Assembly: GCA_030390025.1 (NCBI GenBank)
Contig: CM059432.1
Location: 23,562,001-23,626,000 of the forward strand
Direction: 5' to 3'
Source: Squalus acanthias
Taxonomy: Eukaryota
DNA length: 64,000 nt
Below the pieces are notes generated by a model. That model was given only the letters and a program-made list of their open reading frames with translations, ran no database searches and was not told the origin of the DNA. Of this stretch, positions 33 to 44,862 are shown piece after piece. A program made the position numbers and the translations under genes. Each line of letters opens with the position of its first letter. Position 1 is the first letter of the stretch.

Positions 33-768
33 GTAAAGAGATACAGAATCGCCAAAGCATATATAGATAGAGAACAATGCATGTGTTACTTACAAAAGCA
101 GACGACTACATTTAAATCACCCTGACTGTTTATCTGCCGAGGTGTGACAAAAGGCAATCAGGTCACATCAAAGACATAGCAAGATACAACTGAGACAATG
201 AGGTGGAGCCACAGGGGGTCCAATGTGTCAAAAGCCGCAGTATGGGAAACGATAAACTTTAAAAATTTTACTTTTTTACTGGGAATCACATCTGTTAACA
301 AGCCAACGGCGACTCGAGTCTGGATCACGTCATGTATCGTGACATAAACCCAAGACCCCGGTTGAGGCCGTCCTCATGAGTGCGGAACTTGGCTATCAGT
401 TTCTGCTCGATGATTTTGTGTTGTCGTGTGTTTCTAAGGCCGCCTTGGAGAACGCTTACCCGCAGATCCGAGGCTGAATGTCCTTGACTGCTGAAGTGTT
501 CCCCGACTGGGAGGGAACACTCCTGCCTGGTGATTGTTGCGCGGTGTCCGTTCATATGTTGTCTCAGTGTCTGCATGGTCTCGCCGATGTACCATGCCGC
601 GGTGCATTCTTTCCTGCAATGTATGAGGTAGACAACGTTGGCCGAGTCACATGAGTATGTACCATGTACCTGGTGGGTAGTGTCCTCACGTGTGATGATG
701 GTATCTGTGTTGATGATCTGGCATGTCTTGCAGAGGTTGCCGTGGCAGGGTTGTGTGGTGTCGTGGTA
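1..768 (-). mobile_element. Penelope-like retroelement 3' part: GIY-YIG endonuclease C-terminus, 3'UTR and terminal repeat (runs off the window)
   Basis: Minus frame ~735-325 reads CKTC..CDSANVVYLIHCRKEC..WYIGETMQTLRQHMNGHR..HF..H..E..GLN, a PLE GIY-YIG domain. Bases 1-150 are homologous to 24612-24752. Confidence 0.92.
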
Positions 769-9524: not shown

Positions 9525-10352
9525 GGGGGTGATTTTGCCAGCCCTGGGGAGGCGGGTATGGAGGCGGGACTGCCGGGAAAATGGCAGAATTTGGGAACGG
9601 GTGCCCAACCCGCCCCCATGCCATCTTGCCAGGAGGCGAGTAGCCGTCCCGCGCCGGGTCCCGTCTCCTTGGAGGCGGGAAGGGATTAAAGCCTATTAAC
9701 TGCCTGTTAACAGGTAGTTAACAGGCAGAAAATAGGATTATCCCCTTTTTGCCCTCACAAGTGCGGGCTTCCCGAAGGCTCCAAAACCTGCCAACTCAGC
9801 GAGGTGAGTACTGGGTCTGCGGGGTTTGGAGGGGTCCAAAAGTGTGCTGTGAAGATAAGTGATGGGTGCAAGAGTGGAGAGGTGAGTATCTGAGGTAAGT
9901 GCAAAGTGTTAGTAAAAGTGTACTTACCTTTGTTTCTCCCTGCAGGCTTCAGTCGGTGTGTTTGTGGAGAGTCTCTGACCTCCGTGTTGCAGATGACAGA
10001 TGGCCGTTGCATTCTCCAATGCAACAACCATCTCATTTCTGTAAAAGAAAGAAGTTTGATGAGGTCTTGAATTCAAGACCTCATCAAACTACAGAGAATG
10101 TCAGTGTTTGACAGCTTCACAGAGCTGTCAAACGATGACAATTCATCTGTCAAAAATTTTTGACTGATGAAACGTCACTCGCTGACGTTCTCTGCAACCG
10201 GCTTTCCCTTAATTGGCCTGCTAAGCCTGCTGGGCGATCAAGGTCAATCAAGGGAAAATAGCGTAGTTGGCCACAAATCGATGGAGGCGGGACATCGACC
10301 CGCCAAGCAGCAGTCCCGCCTCCAACGCGCCCCCATTAACAAAATCGCCCCC
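9525..10352. mobile_element. PIF/Harbinger-type MITE (family A)
   Basis: TIRs GGGGGTGATTTTG / CAAAATCGCCCCC with exact 3-bp TSD TTA. Confidence 0.88.
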
Positions 10353-23350: not shown

Positions 23351-24600
23351 TGCCCTGCTGCCACATTGGGAAGGTACCAAACAGGTCAGCCTTCCTTACA
23401 TTCACCGAGTACATCATAATGCCCATAATGAAATAGGGGTCTGGTACTGAACATCCATTGTTGTTAACGGGGAACAGAACTTGAGAGCTGATCTGGAGCT
23501 AAAGAAGTCCCAGAAGTCATGCTAGTGGGTGGGTGACGTAAGAAAACTATTAGGCACTTGGTCTAAGCGTTAAACAAAGCTTTAATCAACTGTTTTCCAA
23601 CATGGAGATCTAGTTGTCCTTCCCTAGTTCCTGTTAAAGAATGTCCTGAGCAAGCTGGGCCCATGCCCGAGTATTTATACTCTCTCTGGACAGCGGCACC
23701 AGCAGGCCGCCCAGTATTATGTCATAAGTCATTTCCCATGAATGACAAGATTCATGTCATTGGGTACTTTGCAGTCGCAGCCTGCCGCATGATGTTCTGT
23801 GGTCCAGAATGCTCCAGAGTGACACTCATGTCTAGCTGAATTCATGCCTCCTACTCGGCCATGGAGATATAATCTATCATCAGAGAGTGACTGAGCACAA
23901 GTATGAGTTGATCAAAGAAAGTCAACATAGAATCTTAGCATGATACAGCACAGAAGGAGGCTATTTGACCCATCGTGCCTGTGCCGGCACTTTGGTCGAG
24001 CTATCCATTAGTCCCACTTCCCTACCCTTTCCCCAGAGCCCTGTAAATGTTTCCCTTCAAGTATTTATCCAATTCCCTTTTGAAAGTTACTATTGAATCA
24101 GCTTCCACCACCCTTTCAGGCAGTGCATGCCAGATCACAACAACTCACTGCGTAAAAAAATTTCTTCTCATCTCGCCCTCTGGTTCTTTTGCCAATCACC
24201 TTAAATCTCTGTCCTCTGGTTACCGACCCTTCTGCCACTGGGAACAGTTTCTTCTTATTTACTCTATCAAAATCGTTCATGATTTTGAACACCTCTATTA
24301 AATCTCCTCTTAACTTCCTCTGCCCTAAGGCGAACAACTCCAGCTTCTCCAGTCTCTGTACATAACTGAAGTCCCTCATCCCTGGTACCATTCTAGTAAA
24401 TCTCTTCTGCACCCTCTCTAAGACCTTGAAATCCTTCCTAAAGTGTGGTGCCCAGAATTGAACACAATACTCCAGCTGAGGCCTAACCAGTGTTTTTTAA
24501 AGGTTTATCATAACTTCCTTGCTTTTGTACTCTATGCCTCTATTAATAAAATTGAGAGGTCGCACAACACCAGGTTATAGTCCAACAGTTTTATTTGAAA

Positions 24601-24638
24601 TCACAAGCTTTCGGAACTATCGCTCCTTCCTCAGGTGA
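24601..24638 (-). ncRNA. Minimal type I hammerhead ribozyme motif (mirror copy)
   Basis: Exact reverse complement of 24835-24872. Confidence 0.85.
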
Positions 24639-24834
24639 AGTAAATTGGATACAGAATCGTCAGAGCATATATAGATGGAAAAAAAAGCATGTGTACTTTA
24701 CAATTGCAGACCAATAAATTAAATCATCCTGACTATCTGCCGAGGTGTGATAAAGATATTGGTCTGCAATTGTAAAGTACACATGCTTTTTTTTCCATCT
24801 ATATATGCTCTGACGATTCTGTATCCAATTTACT

Positions 24835-24872
24835 TCACCTGAGGAAGGAGCGATAGTTCCGAAAGCTTGTGA
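24835..24872 (+). ncRNA. Minimal type I hammerhead ribozyme motif
   Basis: UCAC-CUGAGGA-A-GGAGC(GAUA)GUUCC-GAA-AGCU-U-GUGA: stem I UCAC/GUGA, intact core, 5-bp stem II, palindromic AGCU in place of stem III. Confidence 0.85.
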
Positions 24873-25189
24873 TTTCAAATAAAACTGTTGGACTATAACC
24901 TGGTGTTGTGCGACCTCTCAATTTTGTCCACCCCAGTCCAACACCGGCATCTCCGCATCATGTCTATTAATAAAGCCAAGGATCCCATATGCTTTTTTTA
25001 ACAGCCTTCTCAACTTGTCCTGTCATCTTTAAATATTTGTGCACATACACCCCCAGGTCTCTCTCTTCCTGCACCCCCTTTAAAATGCTACCACTTTGTT
25101 TATATTGGCTCTCCTCATTCTTCCTAGCAAAACGTATCAGTTCACACTTCTCTGCATTAAATTTCATATCTGTCCAATTTAGTTCATTT

Positions 25190-29214: not shown

Positions 29215-29628
29215 GTGAGACTCATTTTAATGCTGCATTTCCTTGTTTATGATTGTTTTGTGTTGTATACCATTAGCAAGACACATCAAACTACCTGGAT
29301 GCTGAATATACTGTTAGCATATAATGTTAATACACATTGTGGGGTTCACTGGTGCTGGCCGTTCCCATAAGCAGTCTTGCGTTCAGCATTGTATCCTTAC
29401 TGCTTATTATCTTATAATGCAGTGACATAACCCACAGGTGTAACGGTCGTATCCCTTGCGATCTGAGCATTGTGTATTTCAAACGTGCTCTTACAGGCAC
29501 CTCCAGTTTTTCAGTGGAGAGACTGAAAACACTTTCGTGAAACAAGGTCAGCTACGAATCGTTAAACTGCTTTATTTTATAGGCAATCAGTGAATATGCA
29601 AGTTATAATTAAATCTCACCTTGACTAA

Positions 29629-29854
29629 TAAAAAAACAAAATACTGCGGATGCTGGAAATCTGAAATCAAAAACAGAAAATGCTGGAAATACTCAGCAGG
29701 TCAGACAGCATCTGTAGAGAGAGAAACAGAGTTAACGTTTCAGGGTGATGACCTTTCGTCAGACGAAGGGTCATCGACCTGAAATGTTAACTCTGTTTCT
29801 CTCTCTACAGATGCTGTCTGACCTGCTGAGTATTTCCAGCATTTTCTGTTTTTT
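29629..29854 (-). mobile_element. Second-family Penelope-like fold-back insertion with hammerhead cores at the axis
   Basis: 16-bp TSD ATCTCACCTT(G/A)ACTAA (29613-29628, 29855-29870); ~92-bp inverted arms centred on 29761; one-sided tail 29629-29668. Confidence 0.85.
29731..29762 (-). ncRNA. Hammerhead core (5' strand of stem I lost at the inversion)
   Basis: Minus: CUGACGA-A-AGGUC(AUC)ACCCU-GAA-ACGU-U-AAC. The plus arm 29762-29791 has GACGA-A-GGGUC(AUC)GACCU-GAAA. Confidence 0.65.
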
Positions 29855-30799
29855 ATCTCACCTTAACTAACTTTAGAACACACAGAAAATAATAAATATA
29901 CATCACACTATCCCTATAAGCTGGCTCGCATAACTTTTCCTGGTCAGTCTTTTGGTTTTGACCAGCTCTGGGCTTTAGGTGAGTGAGCTTTTCCTCACTA
30001 GCCCAGGCTGCCTTCCCTGATTGACTGACCATCACATAGATCCTTTTGTCCTTTTTCTCCCTGTGTTTTTAAGAAGTGGCAAGTATGTCTCTTTACCGTC
30101 TTTCCCGCATAGTGACTCAATAAAACCAGCAATATCTTCCCCCCCCCCCCCCCTCTCTATTTTGAAGTGTTGGCTTCAAAAAAACATCATCTGCTATTTA
30201 CAAAATGAATAAGAGCCATTCTGGCTTGATGAGTCATTGGTGTCAGTATTAACTGCCCCCAACTGGCGCAAACGGGGCGGGGCACAGTTAAAATGAGTTT
30301 GGTCACTTAACCCCTTTGATCCCTCCACTTTCCCACTGTGTCCCGATCTTAACCTGCTCCTTTGAGCAGGTGAGCGAGACACCCACAGGAAGGCAGTGGG
30401 GTCCTTCTTTAAATATGCAGATCGGGTCTGACAATGGCATCATCGGGACCTGATCTGTAATTTTAGTCCAAAGACCTGAGAGGGGGAGCAGTGATGGCTT
30501 CCCAGTCAGACTCTTCCTGCCAGGAGCTTGATCCTGGGCCAGAAGAGGCCCATCAGGTAAGTATAAACATTTTTATTTTAGATTTCCTTATGTGCCAGGA
30601 GGAACAGCAATATGCCCAGAAACCAATTTTGCCAATATTGAAACCAAACTGGTAAAAGTACACCGGTACTGATTGAACTGTTGGCATTAGCAGCTGGTAT
30701 CAAGATCACCAAGGACACTGATGGTTCCAGTTCTGCCAATGTTACTAATTTATTTATTTACGACGTATGCCGGGAACAAAACCATCTTTTAAACATGCA

Positions 30800-34220: not shown

Positions 34221-34381
34221 CTACAAAAGCAAAATACTGCGGATGCTGGAAATCTGAAATTAAAACAGAAAATGCTGGAAATACTCAGCAGGTCAGGCAG
34301 CATCTGTGGAGAGAGAAACAGAGTTAACGTTTCAGGTCGATCTGAAACATTAACTCTGTTTCTCTCTCCACAGATGCTGCC
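34221..34381 (-). mobile_element. Second-family Penelope-like fold-back insertion (short)
   Basis: Same sequence and tail as 29629-29854; 14-bp TSD TAAAC(A/T)TTTGCCTA (34207-34220, 34382-34395); inversion point lies inside hammerhead stem II. Confidence 0.82.
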
Positions 34382-35385
34382 TAAACTTTTGCCTATATCT
34401 TTCTCATGCCTTCTTACTGCCTCACTTAGCTTTTTTCACATTCTTCTGTTCTTGAAATGTATTTTCATTGCCTCACTTAGATGATCTTCATATATCACTG
34501 AGCGGTTTTTACCTCTATCCAGCTTTTCAAAATAATCTGTTTGCTGGGCATTCAAGCCATTATCTCCTCTCTGTGACAGCATTAATGCATTCTAATTTGT
34601 GACTCCAACCTGTTGTTCTCTTTTCTCCTCTACCCTTTTGTTGTGTCGAGTCCCATTTAGGAGCTTGCTTATTTTTTGAGCTACGTATTTCCAGCATTCT
34701 CTGTTGGTAATTTTAGATTTCAAGTGTTTGCTGTTTTTCTTTTTTGTTGTTCCCAGTCCTGATGGCCAACAACCACTCCTGGAAGTGCACATGGGCTTCT
34801 GTTGCCTGCCTCAGAGTTCAGAACCCCTATGCTTTCTTGAGGTTTTGCATTGTGCTTAAGGTTTGTTGTTTAGTTAGGATAGAAGTTTTACTTGTATCTA
34901 ATCCATGGGCGGTGGGCGGTTTAGGCAATGGTGGAAAATATTTCATTCTCAGAACTGATTCCCTCATAGAATCACACAGCACAGAAGGAGGCCATTCGTG
35001 CCTGTGCCTGCTCTTTGGTAGAGCTATCCAATTAATCCCACTCCCCTGCTCCTTCCCCGTAGCCCTGTAAGTTGTTTCCCTTCAAGTATTTATCCAATTC
35101 TCTTTTGAATTTTACTATTGGATCTGCTTCCACCACCCTTTCAGGCAGTGCATTCCTCATCTTAACAAGGACAAAAATTCATCTCCAGCACCCCGAAAAA
35201 GTTTCCAAAGCAATCCCGCAACTTTGTCAAAGGTAACGTTACAGGGAAATGCTGGAGAATTTGAAATGATAAATTGCAGCTGCCAGGAAAGATAAGGGTG
35301 TAGTTTGTGAGCCACATCTAATGTTAGGAATGTACGCCTGAATACACAGAACTGTACCTGTTTGCCTTTCTGTTATAGAGTCATA

Positions 35386-43557: not shown

Positions 43558-44862
43558 GGGCCTAGAAATGCATCTGTTGAGTGCCACTCCATAGCGCCAT
43601 GAAATGCCGATAAAATGGCCGCCGCTGCTCTTTTGCCAGCTGGTGGCGGGTCCCGCGGCGGCGGCCATATTCCTCTTCCCCTTTGCGCTGTCAGTAACTG
43701 GCAGCGCCCTGGAGAAATAAATGGAGGCATGGTGACGTCAATCAGCGTGCAACGGCGACTTAATGTCACCAACGCAAACTTCGACCCTAGCGCTGAATTC
43801 AGTGCTGGCTCCTAAGCACGCCAGGATAACCTGGCGTGCAAGCAGGCTGACAGTGGCGACTTCAGCAGCTCTTAAAGGGACACACAATTCATTCAGGTAA
43901 GTTTGAATTTAAGGGGACTGTTTTTTTTTGATTTTATTGAAGTGGTGGCTTGCTGCAATAGATGTGAAAAGTTTTTTTTAAGTGTGTAGGGAGTGCTGCT
44001 GGATGTTTGCAAGGGCTCGGATGGTAAATGAAGGCCTTTGAGACGACGGAACATGCTGCAAATACTCAGCAGGTCACGCAACATCCATGGAGAGAAAAGC
44101 AGAGTTCATGTCTCAGGTCGACATGCTGCCTGACCAACTGAGTATTTCCAGCATTTTATGCTGTCATTTCACATTTACAGCATCCGCTAGCAGAGAGATG
44201 AGGCAGACACAGAAGTGGAGGAAGCCGAAGAGGAGGAATCAGACGGAAGGATGCATCCCAGACAGCCCCTTTGTGGCTGGGATATCCTGGATGGAATCAT
44301 CAGCCTGAGGTTCCACTGGCTGGGCAGGCTGCCTCTTGTTGACCCACTGGCTGGGCAGGCTGCATTTCTTGGGTGTGTGAAATGAGGAAGGCACAAGGGT
44401 AGAGTTATGGTGACGGGAGGGCGGGAAAGCAAAATGTGCATACCAGAATGATGTAAAAGAATACCCGCTACCCGCATCTTGTAATCTTTCAGCCTTGAAT
44501 CTGGCCAAGGGCTCAACCATACCCCTGCCAAGAATGTCCTGCACTGTCTCCTTGAAGGGGGTGAGGTGAGGCTAGGAATGGGAGATGTGCCTCGTCATTG
44601 GTGCAGATTGTTGGTAGGTAAGTGATTGGGGGTTGTGCATTGAGCAGTGTGTGAGGCTAATGGTGCAGTTGGTAGGAGACGGCTTTTGAAGATGCATTCA
44701 CTGACCTTGACAGAAACTTCAGGATGGTGTTGCATGGTAGGTGAGCGCTATGCCACCTATCTCCATGCCCCCCAGACCAATTTCACTCGCTTAGCGTTGC
44801 GGCCATTTCCAGTGGCCGGTAACATCGGCAACTTTGCTGGCGAACACAAATTTTTTTCCCCT
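43558..44862. mobile_element. Non-autonomous Harbinger derivative
   Basis: Starts GGGCCTAGAAAT, ends aaattttttttcccc; 44690-44720 resembles the Myb-gene exon-1 donor region at 41340-41380. Confidence 0.55.
44050..44187 (+). mobile_element. Old second-family Penelope fold-back copy
   Basis: atgctgcaaatactcagcaggtca ... tgaccaactgagtatttccagcat plus tail ..cagcatccgc, homologous to 29629-29854. Confidence 0.7.

What the first reader, a model, noticed from the sequence alone, without database searches (positions are those of the whole stretch)
29613..29870. Second hammerhead-bearing fold-back family inverts right at the ribozyme core
Seen: a family unrelated in sequence but with the same architecture (tail, inverted arms, 16-bp TSD). 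The axis of symmetry (29761) falls on the CUGA of the core, removing the 5' strand of stem I. Same extra A after CUGANGA and a palindromic ACGU. It lies ~415 nt downstream of the FAM135B donor. Inference: PLE origin rests on architecture only; no coding partner is in the window.
Basis: partly seen in the sequence, partly recalled or inferred. Interest (0 to 1): 0.7.

Follow-up and report, generated by a model that had tools for sequence, protein, structure and literature searches.

The report
Penelope stub folded at hammerhead edge
This 226-base mirror-image insertion is a pair of stubs from the end of a very common Penelope-type jumping gene, and it folds at the front edge of its small hammerhead ribozyme because half of the short copies that reach that point end there, likely because the RNA they were copied from starts there.

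Summary
In detail: 94%-complementary arms around 29761, a ~33-nt tail on one arm, a 15/16 TSD and a minimal hammerhead core on the minus strand lacking its 5' stem I strand. It is neither a separate family nor a MITE. The arm is the terminal repeat (pLTR) of an autonomous Neptune-type Penelope-like element (RT + CxxxxCxxC linker + GIY-YIG; 93% identical arms on ORF-linked copies; ~180,000 insertions estimated). Inversion points vary (-585 to +52; core C = +1). Both arms end at the core in 2 of 18 curated fold-backs, at least one arm in 10 of 18. The extra feature is a 5'-end hot spot: 18 of 36 solo copies that reach the core stop at -10..+6 (4.2 expected, P 2e-8), against 1 of 27 copies that had read through the ORF. 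Fold-backs pair one tailed with one tail-less arm (15 of 16). Best reading: two cDNAs started at the two internal RT sites, ran off a shared RNA 5' end and were joined head-to-head; that 5' end is inferred. The architecture is published; this scan noted the hot spot earlier in three windows of other genomes.

The parts
29613..29628 (+). left target-site duplication (14-16 bp)
   Evidence: 15/16 identical to the right copy
29629..29662 (-). PLE tail (element about +100..+132; start of the ORF in full-length copies), on this arm only
   Evidence: 3' ends bimodal at +98-100 and +130-132
29629..29763 (-). left arm: 5'-truncated pLTR copy, element 0/+1 to about +132
   Evidence: 93% identical to ORF-linked copies L036, L054, L060
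29730..29762 (-). minimal type I hammerhead remnant: core 29762-29756, extra A 29755, stem II 29754-29742, GAAA 29741-29738, palindromic stem III, predicted cut between 29734 and 29733; 5' strand of stem I missing
   Evidence: cut site inferred from the hammerhead consensus
29759..29763 (.). inversion junction: 5-nt interrupted palindrome (element 0..+4) shared by both arms, axis 29761
   Evidence: (5-nt overlap of the arms)
29762..29854 (+). right arm: tail-less 5'-truncated pLTR copy, element +3 (or 0) to about +95-99; core damaged
29855..29870 (+). right target-site duplication

Best explanation
This is one insertion of a Neptune-type Penelope-like retroelement, made of two short pLTR copies joined head-to-head, likely formed when the element's enzyme primed both target strands from its two internal start sites and both copies ran off an RNA predicted to begin just in front of the hammerhead core. 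Shown: family identity, two 3' ends (+99 and +132), one tail per fold-back, TSD, a 5'-end hot spot at -10..+6 in short copies, and its absence in copies that read through a whole ORF. Inferred: the GIY-YIG domain makes a ~14-nt staggered cut; RT starts at +132 on one strand and +99 on the other; the main linear RNA starts near -3 (an initiator-like YYANWYY has its A at -3), so short products stop there; the two cDNA ends anneal through small interrupted palindromes around the core and are repaired into a hairpin-shaped insert. Long products would come from tandem read-through or circular RNA that has no 5' end at that place. This copy is inert: no ORF, and neither strand can form a complete ribozyme.
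For: Autonomous partner: L061/L062 with 1002/1004-aa open frames between two hammerhead pLTRs; RVT_1 E 2.4e-5 and GIY-YIG E 4e-4, both under Pfam's cut-off; DKG, YIDD, CX4CX2C, YCIRC/YIGET; 66,193 endonuclease candidates; tandem units 3,199 nt apart. Of 59 random solo copies 30 are tailed, 27 tail-less, 2 between. The partner arm is tailed in 1 of 16 distinct fold-backs picked by a tailed arm, P 2e-4. Solo 5' ends: 18 of 36 at risk stop at -10..+6, 4.2 expected, P 2e-8; 9 of the 18 have a TSD abutting that end (read by eye); both tailed (12) and tail-less (6) copies stop there, so it is a place and not a length. ORF-start copies: 1 of 27 at risk stops there, Fisher P 6e-5; three head-to-head ORF-bearing pairs join at -46|+46, -209|-27, -90|+66. 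Arms of one fold-back share subfamily variants (L104, L213; two 5% variants here). PMC11167929 (parts 1-2 of the text): an anole PLE cuts and extends both strands, starts RT at two internal sites that bound the tail, and product length follows the RNA 5' end through the ribozyme.
Against: No RNA 5' end was observed: all runs were contigs and several only guessed to be RNA. In D. virilis Penelope the start site lies 46 nt before a 75-nt intron whose end meets helix I, i.e. about 120 nt upstream, not at the ribozyme edge. No DPE-like motif is seen at the expected distance (read). The same bases form a pyrimidine tract plus CAG acceptor. A start at -3 predicts more full-length copies ending there than 1 of 27, unless those come from other templates. 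The ORF-start sample is one young subfamily (87% identical to this arm), ranked by the search tool, with two loci from one array. The two arms here differ at 4 of 93 sites, two of them at family-variable positions, which a two-template origin would also give.
Confidence: 0.55

Rival explanations
1. Self-priming: one cDNA or an antisense template folds back at a short palindrome near the core and copies itself; the endonuclease then trims one arm at +99.
For: Proposed for head-to-head PLE palindromes in PMC3846280 (passages). Junctions often sit on natural palindromes: this copy, window 34339, L148, L166. Arms share variants.
Against: Does not explain the same hot spot in solo copies. Needs a second step to end the copied arm at the same +98-100 site that solo copies use. 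Several junctions are blunt, very unequal or hold inserted bases (L025, L165, L029, L214).
Confidence: 0.17
2. Template boundary: the protein holds the ribozyme region of the junction where it started and, like telomerase, stops copying at its 5' edge; junctions reached later are not bound and are read through.
For: Explains 18 of 36 against 1 of 27 equally well. PMC11167929 reports a protein-assisted hammerhead and a binding region next to it. PLE RTs are telomerase relatives.
Against: In the same paper 5' truncations from -126 changed product length, so that enzyme read past its ribozyme in vitro. The predicted local fold is weak (-9.7 kcal/mol, z 0.25). Half of the copies pass.
Confidence: 0.13
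3. Splice-site edge: the CAG at -4..-2 is a 3' splice site and copying of spliced RNA loses homology at -1.
For: Pyrimidine tract plus CAG in all subfamilies; the Penelope intron ends at helix I; donor-like sites at -394 and -502.
Against: TSDs abut the stub with no shared upstream exon; 8 of 18 hot-spot ends extend to -3..-10 by alignment; no GT..AG joint to -1 among the joints shown (15 of 77 shown; 3 shown).
Confidence: 0.1
4. Ribozyme self-cleavage makes the 5' ends.
For: 4 of 59 random solo ends lie at +26..+29, next to the predicted cut.
Against: The cut would be after +29, about 30 nt from the hot spot; the +24..+40 window is not raised (6 of 45 at risk).
Confidence: 0.03
5. A MITE-like palindromic element that moves as a fixed unit.
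For: One fixed fold-back (+15-17|+50-52) recurs in 5 of 154 random loci and at window 44043.
Against: Those six share flanks of a larger carrier repeat; all other fold-backs have different junctions, 12-16 bp TSDs where clear and ORF-linked relatives.
Confidence: 0.02

Closest known systems
Complex insertions of endonuclease-bearing Penelope-like elements (inverted 5'-truncated copy, 30-40 bp tail at one end, TSD; PMC8557442, PMC3846280)
   Same: Head-to-head inverted pLTRs with a palindrome at the junction, tail on one arm, TSD, partial tandems, strong 5' truncation.
   Different: Here both arms are cut down to the ribozyme. The passages I read do not report a pile-up of 5' ends at the ribozyme edge or count tails per fold-back. 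TSDs are 12-16 bp against 8-10 bp in the rotifer examples.
Neptune clade PLEs (CX2-5CxxC linker between RT and C-terminal GIY-YIG; PMC8557442)
   Same: Domain order, linker motif, hammerhead in the pLTR.
   Different: No tree against named elements was built; no microsatellite targeting is evident in the flanks printed.
Minimal type I hammerheads of metazoan PLEs (PMC4209133)
   Same: Core boxes, one extra base after CUGANGA, short stem I, palindromic stem III for dimers; pairs on opposite strands and many solo motifs were already reported there.
   Different: Stem II has 5 bp and closes with G-U or A-U instead of G-C; this copy lacks the 5' stem I strand.
Poseidon element of Anolis (PAc; PMC11167929)
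   Same: Two internal RT starts bounding the tail; an AUG or ACG lies in the ribozyme core in frame with the ORF.
   Different: Other clade; that enzyme read through the ribozyme in vitro.
Non-LTR retrozymes (bioRxiv 10.64898/2026.07.22.740005; part 1 and passages read)
   Same: Non-coding, hammerhead-bearing PLE derivatives.
   Different: Retrozymes are head-to-tail arrays of complete ribozymes; this is a single head-to-head insert with a broken one.

Membership tests
EN+ Penelope-like element | Sequence occurs as pLTR flanking one ORF with PLE-type RT and C-terminal GIY-YIG | tested here: met
   (Pfam hits are below gathering cut-offs; motifs DKG, YIDD, YCIRC/YIGET present)
EN+ Penelope-like element | Partial tandems and inverted 5'-truncated copies | tested here: met
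EN+ Penelope-like element | Optional 30-40 bp tail at one end | tested here: met
EN+ Penelope-like element | Variable-sequence TSD | tested here: met
Neptune clade | CX2-5CxxC linker between RT and EN | tested here: met
   CX4CX2C at residue 835 of 969
Neptune clade | RT phylogeny with named Neptune elements | not tested
   no named reference set was fetched; one search gave unnamed shark, ray and gar proteins
Minimal type I hammerhead (family level) | Conserved core and stems, variation confined to N7, loop 2 and neutral pairs | tested here: met
   core 89-99% conserved; variable sites +5, +9 (G/A against U), +14..+16
Minimal type I hammerhead (this copy) | Complete stem I and core on one strand | tested here: not met
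   minus strand lacks the 5' stem I strand; plus strand core reads CAGA
Minimal type I hammerhead | Self-cleavage, as a dimer | not testable with these tools
   needs an in vitro assay; Rfam gave no hammerhead hit, only miRNA-type hairpins below gathering score
MITE | Fixed ends and fixed short TSD, no link to an RT | tested here: not met
Non-LTR retrozyme | Head-to-tail units each with a complete hammerhead | tested here: not met

The most novel reading that the evidence does not exclude
The front edge of the hammerhead acts as a telomerase-like template boundary for the Penelope RT: the enzyme bound at a pLTR-ORF junction copies only ~100-130 nt from each of its two start sites, stops at the ribozyme edge and joins the two products, and only reactions that escape this boundary go on to full-length copies. 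The ribozyme would then be a copying signal rather than mainly a cutter.
Probability: 0.13. Interest if true: 0.7.

Novelty: new member of a known kind. Interest (0 to 1): 0.36.

Why it matters
The copy itself is an ordinary dead insertion. The population behind it is useful: how PLEs form tails and inverted repeats, and what their hammerheads do, are open questions in the papers read. This genome holds a young subfamily with many intact 1004-aa frames and an estimated 180,000 insertions whose ends give three sharp constraints: two 3' starts, one tail per fold-back, and a 5' stop at the ribozyme edge that long products ignore. One 5'-end mapping experiment and one in vitro reaction would separate an RNA start from a template boundary.

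Tried and rejected
Rfam found no hammerhead model at E<=1, only miRNA-type hairpins under their gathering scores; miRNA reading rejected. A genome-wide tally of inversion spacings by one gapped pattern could not be run, so counts rest on samples. A DNA search with the 34.2-kb copy's tail found nothing because common words are skipped; no information. RNA runs were contigs only: loose ends recur near +97-99 and +130-132 and opposite-strand joints at -2, +4, +7, but starts and splicing cannot be judged. From coordinates I first read a head-to-head pair of ORF-bearing copies on C5 as symmetric at the core; the sequence shows -46|+46, so that was dropped. A structural stall was considered: local folds are no better than shuffles. 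Rows dropped before counting fold-backs: of 15 raw pairs in random loci, 5 are one event carried by another repeat (counted once) and 5 are unclear or complex (L092, L108, L115 twice, L233); of 18 raw pairs in searched loci, 2 are duplicates; the 4 pairs found only were kept out of the 18-event tally because that query needed the core; 2 of 61 solos at locus edges were left out; long inverted pairs with gaps over 150 nt (L010, L012) were scored as solos in the searched sets. Paper searches: Penelope-like+shark+Neptune 0 papers; Penelope+truncation+hammerhead+hotspot 0; Penelope+twin priming+inverted 2 unrelated listings; some searches gave the papers cited. Subscription papers, Repbase and supplements were not seen and may already describe this family.

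Full report
Observation. The insert spans 29629-29854 between near-identical 16-mers at 29613 and 29855; none of 20,000 random flank pairs in the window gave a 15/16 repeat. The arms are 94% complementary around 29761 and fold at -167 kcal/mol, z -25. A minimal hammerhead core reads on the minus strand from 29762, so the axis is the U of CUGA. The left arm has 33 more bases than the right. The element starts 414 nt after a splice donor at 29215; the host gene name FAM135B is recalled. It is unrelated by BLAST to the other hammerhead fold-back at ~24548-24925. Three more relatives lie in the window (34223-34382, 44043-44187, about 34685-34745).

Identity. A search of the own genome (3.7 Gb) with the arm gave 1,409 candidates, 40 scored, 30 fetched. 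In about a third of these the arm continues upstream into a shared pyrimidine-rich region and, in L010, into a GIY-YIG frame. That protein found 66,193 candidates. L061 and L062 hold 1002- and 1004-aa open frames between two hammerhead-bearing repeats; the upstream repeat runs through the tail into the ORF and the downstream one ends near +99. Pfam gives RVT_1 (E 2.4e-5) and GIY-YIG (E 4e-4), both below cut-off; DKG, YIDD, CX4CX2C and YCIRC/YIGET are present. The window arm is 93% identical to the repeats of ORF-linked copies L036, L054 and L060 and 87% to the youngest subfamily; L036 carries a 591-aa RT-EN frame. Relatives occur in sharks, rays and gar. By the linker criterion in PMC8557442 (passages and section 10) this is a Neptune-type PLE; no tree was built. 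The only PLE coding remnant in the window is a 34%-identical endonuclease piece at 361-756.

Ribozyme. Over 129 copies the core is 89-99% conserved, while N7, loop 2 and a G-U/A-U pair vary, as expected of the minimal hammerheads of PMC4209133 (Results and Discussion read), which also describes the extra base, the palindromic stem III and pairs on opposite strands. In this copy the minus strand lacks the 5' strand of stem I and the plus strand, the host's sense strand, has a damaged core, so it should be inactive (inference).

Where copies end (core C = +1). I took 154 evenly spaced 10-kb stretches (1.54 Mb) and found 61 solo copies and 15 raw head-to-head pairs, about 49 per Mb or 180,000 in the genome as a rough figure. 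3' ends fall at +98-100 or +130-132 (30 tailed, 27 tail-less, 2 between, of 59). 5' ends pile up: 18 of the 36 copies that reach +6 end at -10..+6, against hazards of 0.00-0.13 in the other 17-nt windows; 4.2 expected, P 2e-8. Nine of the 18 have a TSD abutting that end (by eye), so this is not an alignment-end effect, and both tailed (12) and tail-less (6) copies stop there. Among 30 copies picked by the ORF start, 3 end downstream of +6, 1 ends in the zone and 26 pass it, down to beyond -1360: 1 of 27 against 18 of 36, P 6e-5. This set is one young subfamily, includes the query locus and two loci of one array.

Inversion points. In 18 curated events (6 from random loci, 12 from 29 loci picked by a tail-side query) arm ends range from -585 to +52. 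Both arms end at -10..+6 in 2 of 18, at least one arm in 10 of 18. Three head-to-head pairs of ORF-bearing copies join away from the core. So this copy's axis is a common outcome of the hot spot, helped by a 5-nt interrupted palindrome at 0..+4 that both arms share, and not a family rule. In 16 distinct fold-backs chosen by one tailed arm, the partner is tailed once (P 2e-4 against 30 of 59). Clear TSDs are 12-16 bp, most often 14, of varying sequence; several pairs show only short or no TSD. Arms of one event share subfamily variants. One fixed fold-back recurs five times plus once in the window, but inside a larger carrier repeat.

Mechanism. PMC11167929 (parts 1-2 of 4) shows for an anole PLE that both strands are cut and extended, that RT starts at two internal sites bounding the tail, that sequence from the ORF start is needed, and that product length follows the RNA 5' end. 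Applied here (inference), one reaction uses +132 on one target strand and +99 on the other, and the two cDNAs are joined at their far ends, giving one tail per fold-back and a ~14-bp TSD. The hot spot is most simply a shared RNA 5' end near -3, where an initiator-like motif sits; long products would come from tandem or circular templates. Against this: no 5' end was observed (searches are contigs), and D. virilis Penelope starts about 120 nt before its ribozyme (PMC2377424 passages). Rivals are self-priming (PMC3846280 passages), a protein-set template boundary, and a splice-site edge; ribozyme cleavage is 30 nt off; a MITE is excluded.

Novelty. Tail, inverted pLTR, palindromic junction, TSD and minimal hammerhead are all described. 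I found no paper on a 5'-end hot spot at the ribozyme edge in the searches, but the library lacks subscription papers and Repbase, and supplements were not read. Three earlier notes of this scan report the same pile-up in windows of other genomes; I saw them after my counts and they are not independent support. Verdict: new member of a known kind with a testable regularity; interest 0.36.

Noticed in passing
window 44043-44187; L070, L088, L118, L120, L136: One old PLE fold-back (+15-17|+50-52) is carried inside a larger repeat with shared flanks, 5 times in 1.54 Mb plus the window; the carrier was not identified.
   Followed up: partly
window 34223-34382: Second fold-back of the same family with a 14-bp TSD, axis on a 4-nt palindrome in loop 2, right arm ending early at +60.
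   Followed up: yes
window 24548-24925: Fold-back of another hammerhead family; both arms keep an intact core with different stems.
   Followed up: no
window 361-756 (-): Endonuclease remnant of another PLE family, 34% identical to the L061 protein.
   Followed up: no
L064 4630-4739: A short ribozyme stub (-10..+99) has inserted in frame into the RT region of a copy of its own family.
   Followed up: partly
G000 many contigs, e.g. C30:11679985-11686562, C4:15716336-15722912: A very young subfamily with many intact 1004-aa frames and three-unit tandem arrays of 3,199-nt period; likely still active.
   Followed up: partly
L266 1636 to 1296 (element +271 back to -70): A backward joint in contigs of two studies; genomic partial tandem or circular RNA, not resolved.
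   Followed up: no
L036 2055 and 2445-2446 (element -394 and -3..-2): A donor-like site in the endonuclease end and the acceptor-like CAG before the core are in the same reading phase; splicing would fuse tandem ORFs. No joint seen.
   Followed up: partly
window 10053-10090: Short perfect inverted repeat, axis about 10071.
   Followed up: no
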